Below are positions 6,500 through 60,933 of a stretch of DNA of 64,000 bases, in pieces. Origin of the DNA: Candidatus Hydrogenedentes bacterium UBA6118 (GTDB lineage Bacteria; Hydrogenedentota; Hydrogenedentia; Hydrogenedentales; SLHB01); assembly GCA_002422525.1 (NCBI GenBank), contig DIWA01000077.1, positions 62,096 to 126,095 on the forward strand, read 5' to 3'. Numbering within the stretch: the first letter of the stretch is position 1; each line of letters starts with the position of its first letter. The notes beneath the pieces are model-generated. The model did no database searches. It saw only the letters and a list, made by a program, of their open reading frames with translations, and was not told where the DNA came from. The position numbers and the translations under genes are program-made.

Positions 6500-7690
6500 A
6501 TGTTTGAGCAACTCGATGTGGCTCCGCCCGATGCGATTCTCGGGCTGAGCGAAGCCTTCCAGAAGGACCCGACCCCGGGGAAGATCAATCTGAGCGTGGG
6601 CGTGTACAAGGACGCAGACGGGAAGACGCCGGTGCTGTCGGTGGTCAAGGAGGCGGAGCGGCGTCTGCTGGCTGAGGAGGCGACGAAGTCGTACCTGGGG
6701 ATCGACGGGTCGGCGGCGTACGGCGCGTCGGTGCAGGAGTTGGTGTTCGGCGCCGGCCATGAGGCGGTGACGTCGCGGCGGTGCGCGGTCGTGCAGACGC
6801 CGGGCGGGACGGGCGCGCTGCGGGTGGCGGCGGACTTTCTGAAGGCGAAGCTGGGCGGCCCGACGGTGTGGATGAGCGATCCGACGTGGGCGAATCACGG
6901 GAGCGTGTTCGCGGCGGCGGGGCTGACGTGCCAGACCTACCCGTATTACGATCACGCGAGCCATTCGCTTGATTTCGAGGGCATGACGGAGGCGTTGCGC
7001 GAGGTTCCCGCGGGGGATGTCGTGCTGTTGCATGGCTGTTGTCACAATCCCACGGGGATGGACCCGGATCTCAGCCAGTGGAAGGCGCTGGCGGCGTTGT
7101 CGGCGGAGCGGGGCTGGATCCCGCTGGTGGATTTCGCCTATCAGGGGTTCGCGGAGGGGCTCGAGGCGGACGCGCTGGGTGCGCGCGAGTTCGTCGCGAC
7201 GGGCCGGGAGATGTTCATCTGCTCGTCGTTCTCGAAGAACTTCGGGTTGTATAATGAGCGCGTGGGCGCGCTGTTGATCGTGGGGGCGTCGGAGGACGGC
7301 GCGCAGAAGGCGCTGGGGCATGTGAAGCGGGTGATCCGGGCGAACTATTCGAACCCGCCGGCGCACGGCGCGCTGATCGTGCGCACGACGTTGGCCGACG
7401 CGGAGCTGCGCGTGCAGTGGGAGGCGGAGGTGACGGGGATGCGGGATCGCATCAACGAGATGCGCCGCCTCTTCGTGGAGACGCTCAAGGCGAAGGGCGT
7501 GACGCGGGACTTCTCGTTCATCTCGCGTCAACGGGGGATGTTCTCGTTCTCCGGGCTGACGCCGGAGCAGGTGAAGCGGTTGCGTGATGAATACGCCATC
7601 TATATCGTTGGAAGCGGGCGCATTAATGTGGCCGGCATGACGCGAGGTAATATGGATCGGTTGTGCGAGGCCGTCGCGAGCGTGTTGTAG
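6500..7690 (+). CDS. aspC: aspartate/aromatic-amino-acid aminotransferase (class I, AspC/TyrB-like)
   Basis: start MFEQLD at 6500; PLP-lysine motif SFSKNFGLYNERVGAL; overall AspC architecture. Confidence 0.85.
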   Translation: MFEQLDVAPPDAILGLSEAFQKDPTPGKINLSVGVYKDADGKTPVLSVVKEAERRLLAEEATKSYLGIDGSAAYGASVQELVFGAGHEAVTSRRCAVVQTPGGTGALRVAADFLKAKLGGPTVWMSDPTWANHGSVFAAAGLTCQTYPYYDHASHSLDFEGMTEALREVPAGDVVLLHGCCHNPTGMDPDLSQWKALAALSAERGWIPLVDFAYQGFAEGLEADALGAREFVATGREMFICSSFSKNFGLYNERVGALLIVGASEDGAQKALGHVKRVIRANYSNPPAHGALIVRTTLADAELRVQWEAEVTGMRDRINEMRRLFVETLKAKGVTRDFSFISRQRGMFSFSGLTPEQVKRLRDEYAIYIVGSGRINVAGMTRGNMDRLCEAVASVL

Positions 7691-9513: not shown

Positions 9514-10247
9514 GGGGCGGGCTCGACGGGAGCGGCGGGCGTGATGGCCTCGGGCATGCGCTCGACGCGGGCGGTGACTTTGCGGAAGCTCTCCTCGTTC
9601 TCGATCACCTTGGTGTCGCGCGGCACGGCGAGTTGCGTGTCTTCGGGCTTGACGTCGCCGTTCACTTCGAAGTCGTCGAAGTTGAGGATCACCTGCGACT
9701 CGGCGTCGTTGAAGATGTGGATGCGCGTGGGGATGTAGTCGCCGTCGCGCAGGAAGATGCGGACGCGCTCGAACAGGCGCGGGGCGGCGTCGTCGGTCTC
9801 GATGGGGGTGAGCATGAGCCCGTAGGCGGCGCGATCCGATTCGTCGCCGGGGTCGAAGAGGTCGAGCTGGTAGGCTTGGCGAAGCTCGGCCGGATCGCTT
9901 TCGAATGCCGCGAAGAGGGCCTCCATGTCGGGGTCTTTGCCTCGGTCGTATATTTGGACCTGCTCGAGTTCGCGGTCGTGTTCGTAGACGCGCGAATGGT
10001 CGATGAGGATCTCGTGGACCGGGTCCATCGTGTCGGGGTCGAGGATGCGGAAGACGATGCGACGGGGGCGGACGAAGAGGAGGCGTCCGACGGATTGCAG
10101 GCTCTCGTCGGGCGTGCGGTTCTCCATGATGAAGCGGGCCTCGAGCGAGACGACGTCTTGCCGTTGCTGGGCGAGTTCGTCGAGGAATGCGTCGACGGAT
10201 TCCGGCAGCGCGGCGCAGCCGGCGATCAGCAGTGCGATGGAGAGCAT
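9510..10247 (-). CDS. lipoprotein, LolA-like/outer-membrane lipoprotein-sorting fold (tentative)
   Basis: lipobox LLIAGC at N-terminus; 4-bp overlap with maf; fold assignment is from weak pattern only. Confidence 0.4.
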   Translation of the reverse strand: MLSIALLIAGCAALPESVDAFLDELAQQRQDVVSLEARFIMENRTPDESLQSVGRLLFVRPRRIVFRILDPDTMDPVHEILIDHSRVYEHDRELEQVQIYDRGKDPDMEALFAAFESDPAELRQAYQLDLFDPGDESDRAAYGLMLTPIETDDAAPRLFERVRIFLRDGDYIPTRIHIFNDAESQVILNFDDFEVNGDVKPEDTQLAVPRDTKVIENEESFRKVTARVERMPEAITPAAPVEPAP

Positions 10248-29328: not shown

Positions 29329-29359
29329 GGGGGGCCTCCTGGTCGACGGGGGCAGAATA

Positions 29360-29375
29360 CTGAATATATATTCAG
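29360..29375. promoter_or_regulatory. AT-rich perfect palindrome CTGAATATATATTCAG
   Basis: 16-bp perfect inverted repeat, 32 nt upstream of the helicase-wHTH start on the minus strand. Confidence 0.5.
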
Positions 29376-29485
29376 AAGTCAAGCGGAAAACGGCGGGAGT
29401 GGAAGACGGGCGTCGCGGAGATGGGAAACGCGCCCTCCCCTCGACGGGAGGAGAGGGCGCGCGGGAAGACAGGCGGACGAGCCGC

Positions 29486-51661: not shown

Positions 51662-52342
51662 GCCTGCGCCTCCGCGGTGAGCATGCCGTGCGCGTAGATG
51701 TCGACGATCGTCTCGACGATTTCTTCCGGGTCCATCGGGGTGAACTCCTTTGCGCCGAAGACTTCTTGGGTGAGGGCGAACATGAAGAACGCGCCGAGCA
51801 GGCACCGAGCGGCGATGGCGGGGTTCATGGGGCGGAGCAGCCCCATGGCCTGGCCCATCTCGATCAGGCGGGCGGCTTGCAGGTCGGACTTGGTGAGGAT
51901 TTCCTCGAAATAGAGCTGTTTCAGCTCGGGCATGTGCGGGTACTCGCCGATCACGAGGGGGAGGGCTTGGGTGACCTCCGGGCTCATCAGCACGCGCAGG
52001 GACTGGATGCCGACGCGGCGGGTCAGCTCCTCGACGTTCTGGCCCTGATCGAGGCGGATCTCGGCGAAGAGGTCGAGAACCGCCTGGAACTGGGTGCGGA
52101 GCGTGGCGACAAACAGGTCCATCTTGCTCTCGAAGTAGAGGTAGATGGCGCCTTTGCTGATGCCGGCCTCCTCTGCGATCTCCTGCATGGTGGCGGCGCG
52201 GTAGCCCTTTTGCGAGAAGACGGCGAGGGCCGCGCGGGTGATCTGATGGGGGCGCTCGTCGGGTTGACGGCGCCACTTGGGTTCATTGTTGGGCAAGGTC
52301 ACGGGGGCGCTCCAAGTAACTGACTGGTCAGTTATATACCAC
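51658..52342 (-). CDS. TetR/AcrR-family transcriptional repressor of the efflux operon
   Basis: HTH ITRAALAVFSQKGYRAATMQEIAEEAGISKGAIYLYF; start taken at GTG 52342 just downstream of the palindromic operator (an ATG at 52362 is also possible). Confidence 0.75.
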
Positions 52343-52345
52343 GCG

Positions 52346-52363
52346 AGCCGGCTGTACGTCAAG
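52346..52363. promoter_or_regulatory. perfect palindrome TAACTGAC-TG-GTCAGTTA, probable TetR operator
   Basis: 8-2-8 inverted repeat immediately 5' of the TetR gene on the minus strand. Confidence 0.55.
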
Positions 52364-52775: not shown

Positions 52776-54536
52776 CTATTGCGCTGAGGCGGCGCCGTTG
52801 GCGTCGAAGAGGGGGATGTCCCCGGGCGCATCAGCGGCGCGCATCTCGATGCGGGAGCAGTTCGCCGTGAGGGTGCGGGAATCGCCGTTGCCGGGCATGA
52901 CGTCGCAGGGCCGCCAGGACGCCGCGCGCAGCTCGAGCGTGACCTCGGAGGCGTCGGTCGCGGGGATGACGCCCGTGACGACGGCGGGTCCGGCGGTCTC
53001 GGGGAAGGCCGCGATGCGCTCGTCGCCCAGGTAGAGGCCCGCGGCGGCGTCGACGGCGTGCTCGGGGATGCCGACGTGGACCGTCACATTGTAGGCGACG
53101 CCCGGTGTGACGGGCAGCAGGAACCGCGAGCCGACCGTCGCCCAGCGCATCGTGGACTCGGGGTCGTCCGGGTCTTGCCCCTTCTCGCGACCGTACCAGC
53201 GGGTGAGGTAGGCGCGGTCGCCGGCGGCGCCGATGTCGATCGCGTAGGCTTTCGCGGCGCCGTCGGGCCAGGCGACGATGAACTCCTCGTTCAGGCCGGC
53301 CTGGGTGCGCGCGCCGGCCTGGTTCGTGAAGCGGAACCCGCCTTCGGCCTGGTTGGCGGTGAGGATCGCGGAGCGCACGGCGGGCCCGACCGCGACATGG
53401 GTGTCGCCGTCGAGGAAGGTGCAGCCTTGGATGATGGCCTTGCCGGCGTCGATCTCGATGGCGGGGCGTCCGGTGAAGCTGAAGTCCCAGTCGCAGAAGT
53501 GGCAGGCGTTCGCGGTGACCTGCGCCGCCTTGCTGCGCATCCAGATGCAGCGGTCGATCGGGCCCCAGAACGAGCAGTTGTTCAGGCTGACCTTGCCCCC
53601 CGAGACGGATTCGGCGATCTCGACGCAGACGGAGTCGGTGCTGGACCAGCGGCCGACGAATTCGCCGTTGGTGATGAGCAGGCCCGAGAGCTGGCATTGC
53701 TCGACGAGCACGGCCCGCTGGCAGGAGTCCGCCCCGATGCCGAGGAAGTTGCCGTTGCAGGCGCCCTTGTCCGACTGGGAGAACTTGTAGCCGACGCCGT
53801 AGCCGAAGCAGAAGGTGTTCGTGACGTACTGCCAGTCGGTGCGGGCGAACTCGAACGCGACGCCGTTGACGTTGACCCATTTGCAGAAGGGGTCGTCGGG
53901 CTTGTAGGCCACGCCGAACGGCCAGAAGTGGACGTTCTCGACGCGGCCGATGTCCATGCAGCCGTCCACGTAGAGCCCGCGCATGAGGGGATAGCCGTAG
54001 ACGTTGCGCACGAGATGGCGGTGGGCCGTGTCAAAGTGGATGCCTTCGTAGCAGGGCATCAGGCAGACGTCCTGCACGCTGACGTTCTCCGTGCCGTGCG
54101 AGTAGATCGTGGGCGGATAGGGGATGGGCGGCACGTCCTCCGTGCTGATCTCGGGGTAGCCGATGGTGATGCCCTTGATCGTGGCGCCCGTGCCCGCCAG
54201 CGTGATGAACGGGGCGCTGTCCGGGGCGCCGCGTCCCGCGAACGCATACAGCGAGGTCCCCTCGCCGGCTTCCCCGCCCTGTCGCCAACCGTTCGCCGGG
54301 GTGCGGAACACGCCCTCGAGCGTGACCGCCGCCGGGATGCGGAGCGTCCCGTCGATACGGTAGACCCCCGCCGGGATGCGTACGACGCCGCCGCCGGCGT
54401 CGCCCGCCGCGTCCAAAGCCTGTTGAAACGCCTCCGTGCAGTCCGCGGCGCCGTCGCCCACCGCGCCGTAATCCACGACGGACCAGTCCGCGGCGGCCGC
54501 CGCGGCGCACACCATGCCAATCACCAAGTGCAACAT
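52776..54536 (-). CDS. secreted right-handed beta-helix protein, pectate-lyase superfamily (GH28/GH55-like)
   Basis: start MLHLVIGMV after GAGGGAGG; signal peptide; DYGAVGDGAADCTEAFQQALDAAGDAGGGVVRIPAGVYRI is the Pectate_lyase_3 N-terminal signature. Confidence 0.7.
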   Translation of the reverse strand: MLHLVIGMVCAAAAAADWSVVDYGAVGDGAADCTEAFQQALDAAGDAGGGVVRIPAGVYRIDGTLRIPAAVTLEGVFRTPANGWRQGGEAGEGTSLYAFAGRGAPDSAPFITLAGTGATIKGITIGYPEISTEDVPPIPYPPTIYSHGTENVSVQDVCLMPCYEGIHFDTAHRHLVRNVYGYPLMRGLYVDGCMDIGRVENVHFWPFGVAYKPDDPFCKWVNVNGVAFEFARTDWQYVTNTFCFGYGVGYKFSQSDKGACNGNFLGIGADSCQRAVLVEQCQLSGLLITNGEFVGRWSSTDSVCVEIAESVSGGKVSLNNCSFWGPIDRCIWMRSKAAQVTANACHFCDWDFSFTGRPAIEIDAGKAIIQGCTFLDGDTHVAVGPAVRSAILTANQAEGGFRFTNQAGARTQAGLNEEFIVAWPDGAAKAYAIDIGAAGDRAYLTRWYGREKGQDPDDPESTMRWATVGSRFLLPVTPGVAYNVTVHVGIPEHAVDAAAGLYLGDERIAAFPETAGPAVVTGVIPATDASEVTLELRAASWRPCDVMPGNGDSRTLTANCSRIEMRAADAPGDIPLFDANGAASAQ

Positions 54537-54633
54537 GTCTCGATCCTCCCTCGTTGACCATCGCGATTCGACATTGTGCCACGAATGCCCCGCGATCGCC
54601 ACCCCGTTGAGTGAGAGGGGGGAGGGGGGGGGA

Positions 54634-54870
54634 TCAGAACCCCAGGTCGCCGTCCTCAATCCCAAGCGCGATCGCCACGGCCAGCGCGTTCCGGAGCATG
54701 AACGCGCCGTAGTTCCTCGCAAGCGCAACCAGATGCTCGGATGCGTCCGGCGTCCAGTCGCCGCCGTCCTGGAGCGCGCGCGTCAGGGATTCGGAATCAT
54801 CGGAGGCGATTCCGTCTAAGGTTGAACGATACTCCTCAACAAGCAGACCGACGTTTTCCATTGTCGCCAA
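54634..54870 (-). CDS. small acidic hypothetical protein
   Basis: 78 aa, 24-nt gap downstream of HNH gene on same strand; stop followed by C9 homopolymer on coding strand. Confidence 0.4.
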   Translation of the reverse strand: MATMENVGLLVEEYRSTLDGIASDDSESLTRALQDGGDWTPDASEHLVALARNYGAFMLRNALAVAIALGIEDGDLGF

Positions 54871-54893
54871 TGCTCATCCTCCTTCCCATGTGA

Positions 54894-55685
54894 TCACTCA
54901 CGGAAAACATTGGATTGATGCCACTCAAGGTAGCGTTGGTCCGGCAGAAATCTGTGCGGACGGATCACGGGCGCGTCGTGGTAAACGCAGATCAGATCCC
55001 GGATGCGTGTGTCCGCGCTGGCGCGCAACGATCCGCATATCGCGACCCTGAGTTCGGTGGTGAGGGTCAGCAGTCCGCGGTCAAAGAGCCGATCGAATGT
55101 CGCGCTCAGGCAGAGCCCGTTGCGCGGGTCCGTTCGGGACTGCTCCGAGACGCTCCAGGGAACAATGTGGCTCGCGACAAGAGCCTCGCGAACCCGAAGC
55201 CCCGTGACGCAGCAGGTCTGTTCGTAGCTGCTCAGGACGGCGTCTCTGAAGAACGCCTGGTGGATTCTGGCCTTCCGCGCGGCGATCTGTTCGGAAGGGC
55301 CCGTCGGGAGCGTCAGTTCTGAGCGCGACTCGCGACCCTGCCCTGCCGGAGCGCCCAATGCTTCGGGCAGTCTGCAGGCCTCGAGTGCGAGGCTGTTCCA
55401 GTCGTTGCTGAACGCGTCCCAGATCTCCGCATCCAGCTTGCTCGCATGAACGAGCCCGGAGACGCCGCGCTTCTGCAGCTCCGGGTCAAAGGCGCCGAAG
55501 TTGCCGAGTTTGCGGGCGACCCCGGCGGGCGACCGGCCGATGAGCTGCGCCAGGGAGACGACCCGCGGGTTGGTCGCCTTGGTTTGTCGGAAGGGGATCC
55601 GGCAGTAGAGATCCAACGCCAGGACCAATTCGTCTCGGGTCCAAGGAGCGCCGTAGTTCTTAGGATCAGGTTCAGATGTCGTCAT
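54894..55685 (-). CDS. HNH endonuclease family protein (HNH_2/PF13391-like; putative restriction or defence nuclease)
   Basis: C-terminal FRDAVLSSYEQTCCVTGLRVREALVASHIVPWS HNH core; N-terminal recognition-like domain. Confidence 0.65.
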   Translation of the reverse strand: MTTSEPDPKNYGAPWTRDELVLALDLYCRIPFRQTKATNPRVVSLAQLIGRSPAGVARKLGNFGAFDPELQKRGVSGLVHASKLDAEIWDAFSNDWNSLALEACRLPEALGAPAGQGRESRSELTLPTGPSEQIAARKARIHQAFFRDAVLSSYEQTCCVTGLRVREALVASHIVPWSVSEQSRTDPRNGLCLSATFDRLFDRGLLTLTTELRVAICGSLRASADTRIRDLICVYHDAPVIRPHRFLPDQRYLEWHQSNVFRE

Positions 55686-55729
55686 GGCGTCTTCATTCGC
55701 GTTCGACTAGACAAAAGTCGCCGGTTTTC

Positions 55730-55768
55730 TGATGGCATACTCCAGCATGGGGCGCGTTGTCCAGCAGG
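55730..55768. repeat. 39-bp direct repeat, copy 1 (TGATGGCATACTCCAGCATGGGGCGCGTTGTCCAGCAGG)
   Basis: identical to 59592-59630; lies 44 nt upstream of the HNH gene start and 87 nt downstream of gajB end. Confidence 0.9.
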
Positions 55769-55854
55769 TTGCGGCGCGGAGGAGCTGCGGTTTGTTCGCG
55801 GGAACGGGGGTGCGGCGGGGCGCTCCAGCCGACGTCGAAGCGATCAGCATCTGG

Positions 55855-57595
55855 TCACAGCTTATACTGGGAGAGAATCGGACAAGCAGGATAGGCCTCC
55901 CTCAGAACAAGCGTATGGACTCGCGCCCGCGTGATGGCGACACGCAGAATCTTACGGCTTCGCGGGTACGGCAGTGGGTCGTTCGGCCAAACGAGAGGTG
56001 AGGAATGTCGGCATCCAAAGATGATGACCGCATCGAATTGCTTGCCCTTTGATTTGTGTATAGTCATCACGTGAGTCCCCGTCAGGTCTTCCCCGCCCGA
56101 GAGGATCTGGTCCTCGGCTAACGCGGCGTCGAGTGCCCGGCGGGCCCCTAGGTATTGGCCGTGCTCTTCCCACAGCGAAGACAGGTTGGCTGCGATGCGC
56201 TTCCCCCGGTTGAAGGTGACAAGGTGTTCGACCTCACGGTCTACCGATAGGAGTTCGTCGACGTTCGTGCCACGCAGTATAGTTCTCATGTGCTCCCAGT
56301 CTTTTCGAGGGTTTCCGCTGAGTGGCGTGGTCCTGAGGTTTCGGACCAGTGCGTCCAGGCCCCTGTAGAGGGCTGCGGTGGTAGCTTTCCCCCCCCAGAC
56401 GAGTCTCGGACGCCCAATTCCGTAACTTCTCTGCACGCTCAAGAGAGGTCTTAGTGCCGTTGGCGCGGAACAGGGATGATAGCAGCTCCAAGGCCACCGC
56501 AAGATCTTCTGCTTCATTGCCCCGGATCTTCGGCTCCATCAGGAAGGCAACGAGTCGACTGGAGAGGAGCGTCTTCGAATCATCGAAGAGCACCTTGTGC
56601 GCTATGGGGTTAGGTGCTGCTCGCAACGCATTAGAGACGATCTTCGCGCCCCTGTCGAAACTAGTGAGGAAAGCAATGCTCTGCGGCGACTTTCCAGTAG
56701 CCTGCCTCACACGGGAGCACACGACTCCAACACTCTGCCTGATGCTGTGGTCGCGCTTGGCGGCTTCCGACTGAAACAAGAGCTGAGAGACTCCCGCATA
56801 GCCTCCCGGCCGACCTCTGGCAGCCAGAACGTCCGCCCCAAACGCAGCGATCTCGTTATCTGGACTGCGGTGATTCTCCGCGCCTAGATCCACGCGAACG
56901 GGCCTCAGGTCGGACTCGATCTGAGTAACCCGTTTCGGCCCAATTCCTGGAAGAAAATCGTAGATCTGTTGTTCTAGATCCGCGAGACATAGCAGTTGTG
57001 AGTGCTGAGCCAGCATCTTAACACACGTCCATTGCTCCGGTCCTGTATCTTGAGCTTCGTCGACAATAATCAGGGGATAATGCGCAGAAAGAATGCGCCG
57101 AATTCGCTCGCACCGGACTAACAGCTGTGCCGTTTTTGGCGCGAACAGGTCAAAAGCAGTCCGGCCTTCCTCTGCAAACAGTCGTTCGCGTTCTGTCGTC
57201 CAGTTGCGCCAGGCATCGGTCTTGCGCCGGGTAACGCCGCCCGACAGGGCCCGTTCATCGTGCGGGGCCAGAAGAGTGAGCCTCTTTGGAGCGCCAAGCA
57301 GATAGGCGTGAGTGCGCAGGATCTCCCAGAAGAAGGAGTGAAACGTCTGGATGGCGAGAAGCCCCTGATCCGCTCGTGGGATTCGCTCGCTAGCGGTTTC
57401 GGCGATTCGTGCAACGGCGGCGCGTGAGAAACTCAGGAAGAGCACCGCCTGACCCCTATTAAGGCCAGCTTCAATTCGATGCAGTGCCTTTAGAAGCGCA
57501 ATGGTCGTCTTGCCACTTCCGGGACCTCCCGTGACAAGGAGATGCCGTTGCTCGTGAAGTATCAGCTGGCGTTTTGGGCAGAGATCGAGCATCAC
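55855..57595 (-). pseudogene. gajB: GajB-like UvrD/Rep-family helicase, reading frame interrupted at G8 homopolymer
   Basis: ORF 56234-57595 has Walker A GGPGSGKT, motif II IIVDEAQD, motif III QQIYDF; ORF 55855-56517 in another frame carries the helicase C-terminal motifs (VMTIHKSKGKQFD, ITRAR); the two frames join at C8 run 56389-56396. Confidence 0.75.
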
Positions 57596-59430
57596 GCGTG
57601 AGGTCCCGCATCGGCCTGAAGTGTCCCATTTGTCTGGTCCTTGGTACCGGAATCATGCTCGAGAGCCCGTGGAATGGCAGCGGGTTCCGGCCTTGGGAAA
57701 TCGGCATAGACCTTCTGAAGGAAGCCCTTGATGCTCACAGGTAGTTCGGAATAGTGGCACATGTCAATGAGCCGTCCAGCGGTTCCGTCGCCCTTGCGAC
57801 CTTTCAGGAGGCGATGGCACAGGCCCTTCACGCTATCATCGTTTGGCCGTTGCGTTGGGATGCTGACGTTTCCCTGTTGACCGAGTTCCCGAATCTCATC
57901 CAGAAGCTGCCACTGACGGTCAATAGGCACCTCGGCAACGAGCAGAGCCTCCGCGCCCGGGTAATTGGTCTCATATGGCAAGTGGAAAGCGCCTTGCAGG
58001 TCTGTGGTCTCATCAGTGGATCGATGCTTCCTGTCGTAGAACGCGTAGGTCGAGAGGCCTAGGCTCTTGAAGAACTGGCCGAAGGCCGGTAGCGCCCCAT
58101 CGCCGTCCGAGGAGAACACCGTCACACCAGACAGATCCAGCGGATAGTACGCCTCATCCGCAGCCTCCATTTTCTCCGAGACGGCCCACAGGGCGATCTG
58201 TTCCGTGAGTCCTTCTGCGACGATAACTGCTCGGCCCAGCATAGCCTCGCAGAGACCTCGTCGCGCATGCTTACGGTAGGTCTTGGGCTTGATGGCTTCA
58301 CCAAGGAAGATCGGTGCTGCTATGAGACCAGCCTCGTCGGAACGCCGCAGGATCTGGATCTGCGAAGGCTCAAACTGCTCAATGACGTAGGGGGAGTGAG
58401 ATGTCACCAGACACTGGCTGGTTCTGTTTACCAGGTAGTTGACGATCCGCCTCTGCGTATGCGGCGGCAACGCAATCTCTGGCTCCTCCATGGCAAAGAT
58501 GACGTTGCTCCTCTTCAACTCGGCGACAAAGGAAAGGAGGGCTAGAACTAACGTGTTCAACGTGCCCGCCCCAACATGCTGAAACGGCACGGGTTCCTGG
58601 TCCGGAAACATGGTGAGAAAAAAGGACAACGTCTTGCGCAGATGCTCCCGCGTCAATTGTGAAACAAAGAGTTTGGCGCCCGATTCCTTACCTTGGGTGG
58701 GAATGTACTGACCAAGACGTTCCTGAAGAGACGCTAGTACTGGTTGCAGACCAACTGCGTCGTCGTCGATTGGCGGATCAAGGTCGTGCAGCCGCTCGAT
58801 GGTCTGTTCCCAGAGACCTGTCCGAATGCTTCCGAGGCGCAGAATGGTATCCAGAAGAGAACCCCGCTCAAGGCTGAGCGCCCGCGAGCCAGTTCGTAAC
58901 GCGCGCAAGTAGAGGAATCCGAACATGCGCTTGACGGTCCGGCTTACCACCTTTCGCTCGCCTTCCGGTGCGTCTGGGCTGTGGGAGAAGTAGGTCTTTG
59001 CCTCGAACTCATCTTCCTCCGGGTCGTATCTGCCAATGCTCTCCAGGCGGAGGCACGTCTCAACTTCCGATGCGTCCACCAGATCGGCCTCGCCCTCAGC
59101 CAAGAGGCGGTGCTCCGTGGTGTGCCAGAACTCAAGATGGGTACCGCAGGTGCTGGTGACTTCATCCGTGAGGCCGGTCAAGACAACCTCAACGCTAAGC
59201 CGCCGAGGCGTTTCCTGGTCCTCCTCAAGGTAGCGAGCGTTGTAGAAGTCAAACTCCTCGACTGGAGGGGACTTGGCAAGACGGTCAGGGCCGAGGACGA
59301 GGTCAAGAGCCTCGCAGACCGTGGATTTGCCCACGTTGTTTGTGCCGACGAGGAGAGCATGTCCACTGAAATGAAGAGTGGCATCAGCGATGCCTCGGTA
59401 GTTGGTGATCTTCAGTCGTGCGACACGCAT
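57592..59430 (-). CDS. gajA: GajA-like OLD-family ATP-dependent endonuclease (ABC ATPase + Toprim)
   Basis: N-terminus RLKITNYRGI...LLVGTNNVGKSTVCEAL (AAA_15/AAA_21); D-loop AMEEPEIALPP; C-terminal Toprim VIVAEGLTE and SSDGDG; 4-bp overlap with gajB. Confidence 0.8.
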   Translation of the reverse strand: MRVARLKITNYRGIADATLHFSGHALLVGTNNVGKSTVCEALDLVLGPDRLAKSPPVEEFDFYNARYLEEDQETPRRLSVEVVLTGLTDEVTSTCGTHLEFWHTTEHRLLAEGEADLVDASEVETCLRLESIGRYDPEEDEFEAKTYFSHSPDAPEGERKVVSRTVKRMFGFLYLRALRTGSRALSLERGSLLDTILRLGSIRTGLWEQTIERLHDLDPPIDDDAVGLQPVLASLQERLGQYIPTQGKESGAKLFVSQLTREHLRKTLSFFLTMFPDQEPVPFQHVGAGTLNTLVLALLSFVAELKRSNVIFAMEEPEIALPPHTQRRIVNYLVNRTSQCLVTSHSPYVIEQFEPSQIQILRRSDEAGLIAAPIFLGEAIKPKTYRKHARRGLCEAMLGRAVIVAEGLTEQIALWAVSEKMEAADEAYYPLDLSGVTVFSSDGDGALPAFGQFFKSLGLSTYAFYDRKHRSTDETTDLQGAFHLPYETNYPGAEALLVAEVPIDRQWQLLDEIRELGQQGNVSIPTQRPNDDSVKGLCHRLLKGRKGDGTAGRLIDMCHYSELPVSIKGFLQKVYADFPRPEPAAIPRALEHDSGTKDQTNGTLQADAGPHA

Positions 59431-59591
59431 CGGCTATGGCCTCCTACCTCCTCTCTCGGAATGCAGAGAGACGTCAGCGCCCCTATTGCCTGAACACGGA
59501 ACGGCAATGGCGAGGCGGATCTAGCCACGCTGTGCACCGGGTGTCAGTGGCACATGGGTAGCTGCTTGTCCGTCAACTCCAGGCGGTTCCT

Positions 59592-59630
59592 TGATGGCAT
59601 ACTCCAGCATGGGGCGCGTTGTCCAGCAGG
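59592..59630. repeat. 39-bp direct repeat, copy 2
   Basis: identical to 55730-55768; 161 nt upstream of gajA start. Confidence 0.9.
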
Positions 59631-59784
59631 GGCCAGTGCCTGGTTCCACGTCGATGTGCCGATCGTGCCGACCTCCGTGCTCGCCTTGTCGCTGCCGAGG
59701 CTGTGGTATGCTCGCGGGGAACGGCACGGGGGCTCTGTGGAGCACGGCGCCGGGCGGGGCGAACTGTGAGGAGGGGTTGCGCGG

Positions 59785-60933
59785 ATGGCGGGGTTGAGGT
59801 GGACGACGCATGGGGATTTGGCGATCCGGAGGACGCCGACGGTGGGGCGGGAGGAGTTTTTGGATTTCATGACGTTCCGCCGGAATGACCGTCCGCTGTT
59901 CACGGAGATCTTCGGGCCGTTGATCGGGTTGAAGGAGGAGTGGGAGGCGCAGGGGGCGACGCCGGAGGAGTTGGGTTTTTCGGCGTTCCGGTATCGGTGC
60001 GAGGGGCGGGGGATGGTCCCGGTGAACACGGGGCGGAACGGGGGGTATCCGGAGGAGGCGATCGCGGAGACGGATGATCTGAAGGTGTGGCGGGACGGTC
60101 TGGGGCGGGTGATGACGCTGGCGAAGGGGCGGTCGACGTTGCCGATTCCGAAGTCGCATCCGGTGCGGACGATGGAGGACTGGCTGCGGATCAAGCCGTG
60201 GTATGGGTTTTCGGAGGAGCGGCTGGCGGGGGATTGGGAGGCGGCGGCGCGGCGGATGCGCGCGGAGGATCGGGTGGTGTGCGCGGCGATTCCGGGAGGC
60301 TTTGATGAGCCGCGGCAGTTGCTGGGGGAGGAGGGGTTGTGCATGGCGTATTGTGAGCAGCCGGAGCTGGTGCATGACATTGTGCGGACGATCGGGGACA
60401 CGGCGGCGGCGGTGCTGGACCGGGTGTCGGCGACGGTTCCGATCGACATGTTGTGCGTGCATGAGGACATGGCGGGGCGCACGGGGCCGTTGGCGGGGCC
60501 GGAGCAGGTGCGGGAGTTCATTGCGCCGTACTATCGCCGGGTGTGGGATATGCTGGCGGATCGGGGCGCGCGGCTGTTCGACCAGGACAGCGACGGCGAC
60601 ATGAACGCGGTGATCGATGCGTTTCTGGAGGCGGGGGTGAATTGCATGCACCCGATGGAGCCGGCGGCGAACATGGATATCGTGGCGGTGCGCGAGAAGT
60701 ATGGGCAACGGCTGGCGATGTATGGGGGCATTGATAAGCATGTGCTGCGGCGGTCGCGGGAGGAGATCACGGCCGAGCTTGCGTATAAGATCCCGCCGAT
60801 GGTGCGGACGGGCGGCTGCGAGCTGGCGCTGGACCACCGCATCCCGAACGGGACGCCGCTGGCGGCTTACCGGTTCTATATCGCGAAGGCGTGGGAGATC
60901 ATGGAGCGGGAGGGGGGATCAATCCGCGAATGA
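59785..60933 (+). CDS. uroporphyrinogen-decarboxylase (URO-D)-family protein (MtaA/CmuA-like)
   Basis: 382 aa; overall URO-D-like layout; weak assignment. Confidence 0.45.
   Translation: MAGLRWTTHGDLAIRRTPTVGREEFLDFMTFRRNDRPLFTEIFGPLIGLKEEWEAQGATPEELGFSAFRYRCEGRGMVPVNTGRNGGYPEEAIAETDDLKVWRDGLGRVMTLAKGRSTLPIPKSHPVRTMEDWLRIKPWYGFSEERLAGDWEAAARRMRAEDRVVCAAIPGGFDEPRQLLGEEGLCMAYCEQPELVHDIVRTIGDTAAAVLDRVSATVPIDMLCVHEDMAGRTGPLAGPEQVREFIAPYYRRVWDMLADRGARLFDQDSDGDMNAVIDAFLEAGVNCMHPMEPAANMDIVAVREKYGQRLAMYGGIDKHVLRRSREEITAELAYKIPPMVRTGGCELALDHRIPNGTPLAAYRFYIAKAWEIMEREGGSIRE

What the first reader, a model, noticed from the sequence alone, without database searches (positions are those of the whole stretch)
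55730..59630. Perfect 39-bp direct repeats bracket exactly the gajAB cassette
TGATGGCATACTCCAGCATGGGGCGCGTTGTCCAGCAGG occurs at 55730-55768 and 59592-59630, identical in 39 of 39 positions, with loose similarity extending about 6 bp further 5'. The 3.8 kb between the copies holds only gajA and gajB.

Two explanations are open. The repeats could be att-like boundaries of a cassette gained or exchangeable by recombination; no integrase is in the window. Alternatively they could be a shared cis-regulatory element. Read on the minus strand, each copy lies upstream of a gene start (44 nt before the HNH nuclease, 161 nt before gajA) and contains a promoter-like TGGACA-N18-TATGCC. That would co-regulate two neighbouring defence modules.
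Basis: seen in the sequence. Interest (0 to 1): 0.65.

Follow-up and report, generated by a model that had tools for sequence, protein, structure and literature searches.

The report
Duplicated intergenic module flanking Gabija cassette
The two identical 39-bp repeats are real, but they are the best-kept part of a duplicated stretch of the host's own intergenic (probably promoter) DNA at a fast-changing anti-phage "hotspot", not the attachment sites of a mobile cassette, so the case is an ordinary though nicely documented example of defence-gene turnover.

Summary
The 39-mer occurs exactly twice (55730-55768, 59592-59630), extends to 47 nt, and has no third copy in the window even at 12/39 mismatches.

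Between the copies lie gajA, a frameshifted gajB, and 74 nt of native-derived sequence.

Six alleles of this locus were recovered from strains 92-96% identical in the flanks. They show a hypervariable defence hotspot between a 78-aa/pectate-lyase-like gene pair and a URO-D-like gene:
- HNH only, with one R copy.
- HNH plus gajAB (the window).
- gajAB with HNH deleted.
- Another HNH plus a Bro-N/PDC-S13 gene.
- A Dcm/Vsr plus four-unknown-gene set.

The duplication is larger than R. It covers a native module R-(variable)-X, where X carries an extended -10 (TGgTATGCT) facing URO-D. The left X copy, now facing the tail of gajB, has decayed.

R always sits upstream of a minus-strand gene and matches TGGACA-N18-TATGCC. 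A promoter role is plausible but unproven.

Both window copies share derived bases absent from most or all relatives, which points to gene conversion.

I found no recombinase, tRNA, hairpin or terminal inverted repeats, and no copy elsewhere.

Verdict: a duplication left by allele stacking, not an att site. Interest is modest.

The parts
55722..55768 (-). R1: left copy of the repeat. The exact 39-mer is 55730-55768 and the 47-nt homology starts at 55722. On the minus strand it reads TGGACA-N18-TATGCC, and its exact 39-mer ends 44 nt upstream of the HNH start codon.
59584..59630 (-). R2: right copy of the repeat. The exact 39-mer is 59592-59630. On the minus strand that 39-mer ends 161 nt upstream of the gajA start codon.
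55769..55842 (+). X1+ext: a decayed paralogue of the URO-D-proximal module X, plus a short 'ext' segment. It is native-derived, not part of the gajAB import, and is orthologous to the X+ext that precedes a different cargo in L104 and L105. Its -10-like hexamer is mutated (TTTGTT at about 55792).
55843..59583 (-). Imported DNA: the gajB 3' flank, gajB, gajA and the 153-nt gajA leader Y. G+C is 0.58-0.61, against 0.62-0.71 for the neighbouring genes and spacers.
55855..57595 (-). gajB (UvrD-like helicase), interrupted by a +1 frameshift in a C8 run at 56389-56396 (G8 on the coding strand). It is intact at 572 aa in relative L007.
57592..59430 (-). gajA (OLD-family ATPase plus TOPRIM nuclease), 612 aa.
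59431..59583 (-). Y: the gajA upstream leader, with a GGAGG ribosome-binding site. It is 93.5% identical in L007 and shows no homology to the HNH leader. Its outer end marks the right junction of the imported DNA with R2.
59631..59696 (.). Remnant of the variable spacer between R2 and X2. Relatives carry about 245-290 nt here, including the palindrome GGGGCACGGCGCGCCGTGCCCC. Most of it is deleted in the window.
59697..59733 (+). X2: GAGGCTGTGGTATGCTCGCGGGG..., with an extended -10-like TGgTATGCT on the plus strand, about 50-90 nt upstream of the URO-D-like gene. The TGgTATGCT motif is intact in each of the five sequences where a plus-strand gene follows and one base off (TGTGCT) in the sixth, L105.
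54894..55685 (-). HNH_2 nuclease gene (263 aa; PADLOC PDLC04132). Its 36-nt leader (55686-55721) abuts R1.
52776..54870 (-). Left conserved flank of the hotspot: the pectate-lyase-like gene (52776-54536) and the 78-aa gene (54634-54870).
59785..60933 (+). Right conserved flank of the hotspot: the URO-D family gene.

Best explanation
**What it is.** R is the HNH-proximal end of a native intergenic module, R-(variable spacer)-X. This module sits in a hypervariable defence hotspot between a 78-aa/pectate-lyase-like gene pair and a URO-D-like gene, in an uncultured PVC-group (Kiritimatiellia-like) lineage. In the ancestor of the window allele, two hotspot alleles were stacked in tandem, and the module ended up duplicated:

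HNH <- R1-X1-ext | gajB <- gajA <- Y | R2-(spacer)-X2 -> URO-D

**How it probably arose (inferred).** The likeliest route is unequal or homology-facilitated illegitimate recombination. One homologous crossover fell on the URO-D side, and an illegitimate join formed at 55842/55843.

**What the parts probably do (inferred).** The module is probably a back-to-back promoter region. R carries the leftward promoter (TGGACA-N18-TATGCC) and X carries the rightward one (TGgTATGCT). After the duplication:
- R1 still serves HNH.
- R2 was placed upstream of gajAB.
- X1, now pointing into the tail of gajB, became useless and decayed.

**Why the copies are identical (inferred from shared derived bases).** The perfect 39/39 identity in this strain is secondary. 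The two copies were homogenised by gene conversion.

**Possible consequence.** RecA-type recombination between the copies could delete gajAB, leaving one R as in L011. No instance of this was demonstrated.
For: **Shown directly**
1. Six alleles were recovered at one locus, in strains 92-96% identical in the flanks:
   - HNH-R-var-X (L011)
   - dHNH-R-X1-ext-gajBA-Y-R-var-X2 (L007)
   - the window allele
   - HNH(deleted internally)-R-X-ext-altHNH... (L104)
   - var-X-ext-altHNH-BroN/PDC-S13 (L105)
   - Dcm-Vsr plus four unknown genes, then var-X2 (L009)
2. R is single-copy where gajAB is absent (L011). It is double where gajAB is present, in both the window and L007.
3. The duplication extends to X. 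L105 aligns over 160 nt (82.5%) with var-X2 of L011, and over 82 nt (79%) with X1+ext of L007. The overlap between these two alignments is X (alignment).
4. The native stretch X1+ext abuts gajB in the window and L007, but abuts altHNH in L104 and L105.
5. gajAB is 90% identical between the window and L007, against 92% for the flanks. This is old shared descent, not recent mobility.
6. Both window copies carry T12 and T19. T19 occurs in no relative, and T12 otherwise only in the L104 copy. Both L007 copies carry C38. L007's own two copies differ at 6 of 39 positions.
7. X's hexamer is TATGCT in all five cases followed by a plus-strand gene, and one base off (TGTGCT) in the sixth such case, L105. 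It is TTTGTT and CTTGCT in the two copies that face gajB. X1 is only 71% identical between the window and L007.
8. In 128 kb only four sites match the relaxed promoter pattern. Two are the R copies. The other two are textbook promoter-operator-RBS-start arrangements.
9. No integrase or tRNA in the neighbourhood seen, and no hairpin in R itself.
10. G+C is 0.58 inside the cassette against 0.62-0.71 around it.
Against: - Promoter activity is not shown. The strict sigma-70 scan finds no site in 54600-60000, and the R -10 (TATGCC) lacks the conserved final T.
- R is no better conserved between orthologues (82-87% over 39 nt) than the flanks (92%). Purifying selection on R is therefore not evident.
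- The order of events cannot be rooted. Stacking by recombination and differential deletion from a larger ancestral island are both possible, because the flank trees are star-like and disagree with allele content.
- Whether L011 is the pre-insertion state or a pop-out product cannot be told.
- Only about 64 kb of the genome was searchable for further R copies. The public collection scans lacked the known R-bearing JGI contigs, so there was no positive control.
Confidence: 0.7

Rival explanations
1. R is the core of attL/attR sites. gajAB would be a small cis-mobilisable cassette, inserted and excised by a site-specific recombinase encoded elsewhere in the genome.
For: - Identical direct repeats flank the cargo.
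- One copy remains in a relative without the cargo.
- The cargo has lower G+C than its surroundings.
- The right junction of the imported DNA lies exactly at the edge of R2.
Against: - No recombinase in the flanks seen, about 20 kb to the left and 4.4 kb to the right of the hotspot.
- No tRNA.
- Homology between the two sides continues beyond R into X.
- The left R copy is 74 nt from the foreign DNA, and that native stretch borders another cargo in L104 and L105.
- Other cargos at the hotspot (L009, L105) are not flanked by R.
- R was not found in viral, genome or metagenome collections.
- The cassette has diverged as much as the flanks.
Confidence: 0.1
2. R is a dedicated operator or regulatory element, bound by a transcription factor, that co-regulates the HNH and Gabija modules. 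Selection for identical regulatory input would keep the two copies identical.
For: - Both copies sit upstream of defence genes on the same strand.
- R contains an internal direct sub-repeat, TGCTGGA-N12-TGCTGGR, read on the minus strand directly from the sequence.
- Regulators that bind repeats in defence-island promoters are known, for example RptR (PMC12255303).
Against: - No regulator gene lies next to the modules. The nearby TetR has its own palindromic operator at its own promoter.
- R varies at 11 of 39 positions among six distinct copies, with no sparing of particular sub-motifs.
- Orthologous conservation is not above background.
- The same R serves the 78-aa/pectate-lyase-like genes when HNH is deleted (L007). 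That suggests a generic host promoter region rather than a defence-specific switch.
Confidence: 0.15
3. The repeat is a chance match or an assembly artefact.
For: The source is a metagenome-assembled genome.
Against: - 0 of 100 shuffles give any match.
- The structure is identical in contigs from different assemblies and assemblers.
- A diverged version of the same two-copy arrangement exists in an independent strain, L007.
- k=31 Logan contigs from two further runs break exactly 30 nt into the repeat, as expected for a genuine repeat longer than k.
Confidence: 0.01

Closest known systems
Core (MGE-free) defence hotspots flanked by conserved core genes, e.g. cDHS1/cDHS2 of Pseudomonas aeruginosa (Johnson et al. 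2023, PMC10250203); hotspots of horizontal transfer (Oliveira et al. 2017, PMC5635113)
   Same: - Constant flanking genes.
- Strain-to-strain replacement of defence cargo: Gabija, HNH nucleases, a PDC-S13/Bro-N gene, and a Dcm/Vsr-linked operon.
- No mobility genes in view.
- Allele content disagrees with the flank phylogeny, as expected if alleles are moved by homologous recombination in the flanks.
   Different: - The hotspot is tiny, 0.5-7 kb, and sits in an uncultured PVC-group lineage.
- One allele stacks two cargos by duplicating the native intergenic module. That leaves a 47-nt direct repeat plus a decayed second segment. I did not look for such a feature in those papers.
Campbell-type or homology-facilitated illegitimate recombination insertions that duplicate the homologous anchor (textbook knowledge, not tested here)
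   Same: Direct duplication of host sequence on both sides of imported DNA. One junction is homologous and the other is an arbitrary join (55842/55843).
   Different: The mechanism is inferred from the end product only. No donor allele of the form gajBA-Y-R... without the left module was recovered.
attL/attR of integrative elements, and integron attC cassettes
   Same: Direct repeats bound a defence cargo, and a single copy remains at the unoccupied site.
   Different: - No integrase.
- No hairpin-forming attC structure.
- Homology is not confined to a core.
- The repeat is not reused at other cargos or loci.
Gabija (GajA OLD-family nuclease plus GajB UvrD-like helicase)
   Same: Both genes are present, adjacent and overlapping. 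Both give strong PADLOC matches.
   Different: gajB is frameshifted in a G8 run in this strain. The system is probably off here, or switchable.

Membership tests
attL/attR pair of a site-specific integrative element | Identical core sequence in direct orientation on both sides of the element | tested here: met
   39/39 identical, 47 nt at 94%
attL/attR pair of a site-specific integrative element | Cognate integrase or recombinase in or next to the element | tested here: not met
   Only gajA and gajB lie between the repeats. Gene calls and Pfam annotations about 20 kb to the left and 4.4 kb to the right show no recombinase.
attL/attR pair of a site-specific integrative element | Single att copy at the unoccupied site | tested here: met
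   L011 has HNH, one R, then URO-D. This is equally expected for any duplication.
attL/attR pair of a site-specific integrative element | Homology between the two junctions confined to the core, and the element end directly abutting the core on both sides | tested here: not met
   X1 is paralogous to X2. 74 nt of native sequence separate R1 from the imported DNA.
attL/attR pair of a site-specific integrative element | The same att sequence used at other occupied sites or genomes | tested here: inconclusive
   No R was found in viral, genome or metagenome collections. However, the metagenome collection lacks the known R-bearing contigs, and the species is not among the genome representatives.
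Integron cassette (attC) | Imperfect palindrome that folds into a hairpin, with IntI nearby | tested here: not met
   Single-strand folding is no better than shuffles, z 0.0 to 1.1. No integrase is in view.
Transposon or IS insertion | Short target-site duplication (2-15 bp) outside terminal inverted repeats, plus a transposase | tested here: not met
   The duplication is at least 47 nt plus X. The best inverted repeat between the cassette ends is 11 nt, within the range of shuffles. No transposase is present.
Core defence hotspot with cargo turnover | The same flanking core genes in all strains | tested here: met
   The pectate-lyase-like/78-aa genes lie on one side and the URO-D/P-type ATPase genes on the other. 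Both flanks are seen on a single contig in the window, L007, L011 and L105; L009 and L104 each show only one flank.
Core defence hotspot with cargo turnover | Variable content dominated by defence genes | tested here: met
   Gabija, two HNH variants (PDLC04132), PDC-S13, DrmMII-like methylase plus Vsr, and a PDC-M33A-like protein.
Core defence hotspot with cargo turnover | Allele distribution decoupled from strain phylogeny | tested here: met
   In the left flank, L007 groups with L105 and L011 with L104, both at 100% bootstrap. Each of these pairs carries different cargo.
Sigma-70-type promoter (for R) | -35 and -10 hexamers with 16-18 nt spacing, at a sensible distance from a start codon | tested here: inconclusive
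   TGGACA-N18-TATGCC lies 44 nt and 161 nt upstream of start codons. The pattern is rare in the window, and its two other occurrences look like real promoters. It fails the strict scan because the final T of the -10 is missing.
Sigma-70-type promoter (for R) | A transcription start downstream of the -10 | not testable with these tools
   No transcript data were available.
Gabija | GajA (ABC ATPase plus TOPRIM) with an adjacent intact GajB (UvrD-like helicase) | tested here: inconclusive
   GajA is intact (742 bits). GajB is split by a frameshift in a C8 run, while its orthologue in L007 is intact at 572 aa.

The most novel reading that the evidence does not exclude
The R-(spacer)-X module could be more than a passive scar. 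It might be a reusable docking-and-expression unit. Under that reading:
- Each new defence cargo is stacked by copying the module, which supplies a ready host promoter on both sides.
- The module also provides a short, gene-conversion-maintained homology that lets cargos be added, swapped or popped out by general recombination.

This would give integron-like modularity without an integrase. The G8 tract in gajB would add a second, slippage-based on/off layer.
Probability: 0.1. Interest if true: 0.6.

Novelty: new member of a known kind. Interest (0 to 1): 0.3.

Why it matters
This is a clean, small example of how a defence hotspot without mobility genes is built. Six alleles were recovered from closely related uncultured strains. 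Two cargos were stacked by duplicating the host's own intergenic, probably promoter, region. The now useless half decayed, and the other half shows concerted evolution.

It also illustrates that a perfect direct repeat around a defence cassette need not be an att site.

If R and X are confirmed as promoters, the case shows imported defence genes being placed under a duplicated host promoter. It does not reveal a new kind of element or mechanism.

Tried and rejected
- **Public-collection scans for R.**
  - A degenerate pattern covering all known variants gave 0 hits in metagenome contigs, genome contigs and viral contigs.
  - The 20-mer GGGGCGCGTTGTCCAGCAGG gave 18 hits in metagenome contigs. 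All are chance matches lacking the rest of R.
  - The known JGI contigs that carry R were not returned. That collection therefore gives no positive control and says little about other copies in the source genome.
- **Syntenic loci by URO-D protein in genome contigs.** The best hit is 77% identical and not syntenic, so the species is not represented. Useless for synteny.
- **More distant relatives.**
  - The 82% URO-D relative (L099) is not syntenic.
  - L100 and L008 are too short to reach the hotspot (L008).
  - L106 stops short of the hotspot.
- **GajA homologues.** The nearest outside this lineage is 73% identical. The cassette's origin, and whether Y travels with it, could not be traced.
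- **Rfam.** No RNA family matches in 54500-60100.
- **Single-strand folding of R.** No structure.
- **Terminal inverted repeats of the cassette.** Only an 11-nt match (55879-55889 / 59562-59572), within the range of shuffles.
- **Homology left of R, gajA leader vs HNH leader.** None, z = -0.2.
- **The palindrome GGGGCACGGCGCGCCGTGCCCC as a dispersed REP-like element.** Relaxed matches in the window are at chance level. Rejected.
- **Sigma-54 reading of TGGCAT-N5-AGCA in R (by eye).** The spacing is one base short and the GC element is lost in L007. Rejected.
- **Rooting the allele history, to decide whether L011 lost gajAB.** The URO-D NJ tree uses a 74% outgroup, and the three-taxon counts and midpoint-rooted flank trees are star-like and mutually discordant. 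Not resolvable.
- **BLAST of the cassette against plasmids and phages.** Only remote coding similarity to other Gabija genes. No R.


Full report
**1. The observation**

The 39-mer TGATGGCATACTCCAGCATGGGGCGCGTTGTCCAGCAGG occurs at 55730-55768 and 59592-59630 and nowhere else in the window. This holds at up to 3 mismatches, and none of 100 shuffles gave any match. It also holds at up to 12 of 39 mismatches on either strand. Similarity extends 8 nt further 5', giving a 47-nt pair at 94% identity.

The genes on the minus strand are:
- An HNH_2 nuclease at 54894-55685.
- gajB at 55855-57595.
- gajA at 57592-59430.

A URO-D-family gene starts at 59785 on the plus strand.

G+C drops to about 0.58 in gajAB, against 0.62-0.71 in the neighbouring genes and spacers.

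The structure is identical in an ENA MEGAHIT contig and a JGI contig. Logan k=31 contigs from two further runs end exactly 30 nt inside the repeat, as a real repeat longer than k requires. It is not an artefact.

**2. The locus in relatives**

I used the URO-D-like protein and the pectate-lyase-like protein as anchors. This recovered five further alleles from strains whose flanks are 92-96% identical to the window.

| Allele | Content, in window orientation |
|---|---|
| L011 | 78aa - HNH (intact) - one R - about 245-nt spacer with a strong palindrome - X - URO-D. No gajAB. |
| L007 | 78aa - last 25 nt of HNH - R - X1 - ext - gajB (intact, 572 aa) - gajA - Y - R - spacer - X2 - URO-D |
| L104 | 78aa - HNH with a 448-nt internal deletion - R - X - ext - then the upstream region of a different HNH gene |
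| L105 | pectate-lyase-like gene - (78aa, HNH and R deleted) - spacer - X - ext - altHNH - Bro-N/PDC-S13 gene - URO-D. The altHNH is 277 aa, 43% identical to the window HNH, and in the same PADLOC family. |
| L009 | Dcm-type methylase - Vsr - four genes without Pfam hits (one PDC-M33A-like) - part of the spacer - X2 - URO-D. No R. |

This is a small hypervariable defence hotspot between constant flanking genes, with no recombinase or tRNA in view.

**3. What is duplicated**

R is single where gajAB is absent (L011). It is double where gajAB is present, in both the window and L007. But the duplicated DNA is larger than R.

Directly to the right of R1 lies a 74-nt stretch, 55769-55842, called X1+ext here. 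Its first part is paralogous to X2, the segment GGGGCTGTGGTATGCTCGCGGG that lies 50-90 nt upstream of URO-D in every allele.

Pairwise tests within one genome are only marginal, with z between 2 and 2.9. L105 settles the question by bridging the two:
- It aligns over 160 nt (82.5%) with spacer-X2 of L011.
- It aligns over 82 nt (79%) with X1+ext of L007.
- The two alignments overlap on X (multiple alignment).

The same native stretch X+ext borders gajB in the window and L007, but borders altHNH in L104 and L105. The imported DNA therefore begins at 55843, 12 nt beyond the gajB stop codon. It ends at 59583, the outer end of the 153-nt gajA leader Y. To the left of R there is no homology between the gajA leader and the HNH leader.

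The window allele therefore reads:

HNH <- [R1-X1-ext] | gajB <- gajA <- Y | [R2-spacer remnant-X2] -> URO-D

**4. Age and mobility**

Between the window and L007 the identities are:
- gajA 92.7%
- gajB 89.6%
- Y 93.5%
- core flanks 91.5-94.4%

The two-copy arrangement, with identical junctions, is therefore as old as the divergence of these strains. The cassette is not recently mobile.

Flank phylogenies do not follow allele content. In the left flank L007 groups with L105 (96.2% identity, 100% bootstrap) and L011 groups with L104 (98.0%, 100%), although each pair carries different cargo. The window stands alone. This is what is expected when hotspot alleles are long-lived polymorphisms shuffled by homologous recombination in the flanks. 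It is the pattern described for core defence hotspots (PMC10250203).

The direction of individual events could not be rooted. That includes whether L011 is the pre-insertion state or a product of R x R deletion.

**5. Why the copies are perfectly identical here**

The two copies in L007 differ at 6 of 39 positions. The orthologous copies of the window and L007 differ at 5 and 7 positions.

Both window copies carry T at positions 12 and 19. T19 is seen in no other sequence. T12 is otherwise seen only in the L104 copy. Both L007 copies share C38. Shared lineage-specific states in both copies are the signature of gene conversion between the copies. The alternative, four parallel substitutions, is far less likely.

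The perfect identity is thus secondary and confined to the 39 nt. The adjacent 8 nt have already picked up three differences.

**6. Likely function (inferred)**

*Evidence that fits a promoter role for R*
- Every R copy in every allele has a minus-strand gene downstream: HNH, the 78-aa gene where HNH is deleted, or gajA.
- On that strand R reads TGGACA-N18-TATGCC.
- In the 128 kb of both strands only four sites satisfy a relaxed pattern (-35 at 5/6 or better, 16-18 nt spacing, -10 beginning TAT). Shuffles give 2.3 +/- 1.5.
- Two of the four are the R copies. The other two are convincing promoters with palindromic operators, ribosome-binding sites and start codons in the right places. One of them serves the TetR-efflux operon.

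*Evidence that fits a promoter role for X*
- X carries an extended -10-like TGgTATGCT on the plus strand.
- The hexamer is TATGCT in five of the six sequences where a plus-strand gene follows, and one base off in the sixth.
- It is mutated in both copies that face the tail of gajB: TTTGTT in the window and CTTGCT in L007.
- X1 as a whole is only 71% identical between the window and L007.

The simplest reading is that R-(spacer)-X is the hotspot's back-to-back promoter region. Its duplication put gajAB behind a copy of the HNH promoter and left X1 without a job.

*Evidence against*
- The strict sigma-70 scan finds nothing in the region.
- The R -10 lacks the final T.
- R is not more conserved between orthologues than its surroundings.

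Promoter activity therefore remains a hypothesis.

**7. Why R is probably not an att site**
- No recombinase or tRNA is present in the neighbourhood seen.
- R forms no hairpin.
- The cassette ends have no significant inverted repeats.
- Homology extends beyond a core into X.
- R1 does not abut the foreign DNA.
- Other cargos at the hotspot are not bounded by R.
- R was not found in any collection scanned, with the caveat about the missing positive control.
- There are no Rfam hits and no plasmid or phage matches.

The most economical origin is unequal or homology-facilitated illegitimate recombination between two hotspot alleles. One would be an L104-like allele that kept HNH-R-X-ext. The other would be an allele carrying gajBA-Y-R-spacer-X-URO-D. 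That is an inference from the end product.

**8. Comparison and verdict**

The locus matches the tested features of a core, MGE-free defence hotspot. It fails most tests for att, attC or transposon boundaries (see the membership table). The repeat is a duplication scar of native intergenic DNA, probably carrying a promoter, that was homogenised by gene conversion.

The "cassette boundary" idea is right in the loose sense and wrong as an att site. The "shared cis element" idea is plausible as a duplicated host promoter.

It is a new member of a known kind, and interest is modest (0.3).

**9. Side observations**
- gajB in this strain is broken by one extra base in a C8 run (56389-56396; G8 on the coding strand). 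The break is seen in the window and in the ENA and JGI contigs, while L007 has an intact gene. This may be decay or slippage-based switching.
- The four-gene unknown operon next to Dcm/Vsr in L009, and the altHNH plus PDC-S13 pair in L105, are further cargo of the same hotspot.

Noticed in passing
window 56389-56396 (within gajB, 55855-57595, minus strand): gajB is split into two frames by one extra base in a C8 homopolymer (G8 on the coding strand). The same frameshift is seen in the window and in the ENA and JGI contigs. The L007 orthologue reads CT-CTTTCCC at this position and encodes an intact 572-aa GajB. Gabija is probably inactive in this strain, or the tract acts as a slippage-prone on/off switch.
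   Followed up: partly
L009:2211-6808 (minus strand), with L009:201-2250: At the same hotspot another strain carries a Dcm-type methylase (DrmMII-like) and Vsr, next to a four-gene operon (400, 639, 255 and 244 aa). These four have no Pfam hits, and only a weak PDC-M33A match for the 639-aa protein. This is a candidate uncharacterised defence system.
   Followed up: partly
L105:943-2707 (minus strand in locus orientation); the partial upstream region is also at L104:1-90: A third cargo at the hotspot pairs a second HNH_2 nuclease with a Bro-N-domain protein. The nuclease is 277 aa, 43% identical to the window HNH, and in the same PADLOC family PDLC04132. The Bro-N protein matches PADLOC candidate PDC-S13 at 387 bits.
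   Followed up: partly
window 52333-52362 and 29353-29382 (minus strand): Two textbook-looking promoters. The first is TTGACG-N18-TATATA followed by the palindrome AACTGACCAGTCAGTT, upstream of the TetR/efflux operon. The second is TTGACT-N17-TATTCT with the palindrome TGAATATATATTCA in its spacer, followed by AGGAGG and ATG. They suggest that this organism uses E. coli-like sigma-70 promoters with 17-18 nt spacers.
   Followed up: partly
L011:2365-2400, L007:~9790-9830, L009:~6880-6910, L105 (between the pectate-lyase-like gene and altHNH); the corresponding window region 59631-59696 has lost it: The spacer between R and X in relatives contains a perfect 22-nt palindrome, GGGGCACGGCGCGCCGTGCCCC. 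L007 additionally has a roughly 50-nt tandem duplication next to it. Most of the spacer is deleted in the window. The palindrome is not a dispersed repeat in the window, where relaxed matches are at chance level.
   Followed up: yes
L003:1-30, L005:1-30, L006:1-30: Logan (k=31) contigs from SRR5323146 and SRR943313 begin exactly 30 nt inside the repeat. This is independent evidence that the repeat exists in other read sets. It also means that k=31 assemblies cannot distinguish the occupied and unoccupied forms.
   Followed up: yes
L007:5710-5740 and L104:445-453: The HNH gene itself is being eroded in relatives. L007 keeps only its first 25 nt (window 54890-55660 is deleted). L104 has a 448-nt internal deletion (window 55004-55451).
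   Followed up: yes
L106:2106-2495: In one strain a Fic-domain gene lies downstream of the pectate-lyase-like gene, where the window has a 75-aa ORF and the TetR operon. This may be a second variable spot a few kb from the hotspot.
   Followed up: no
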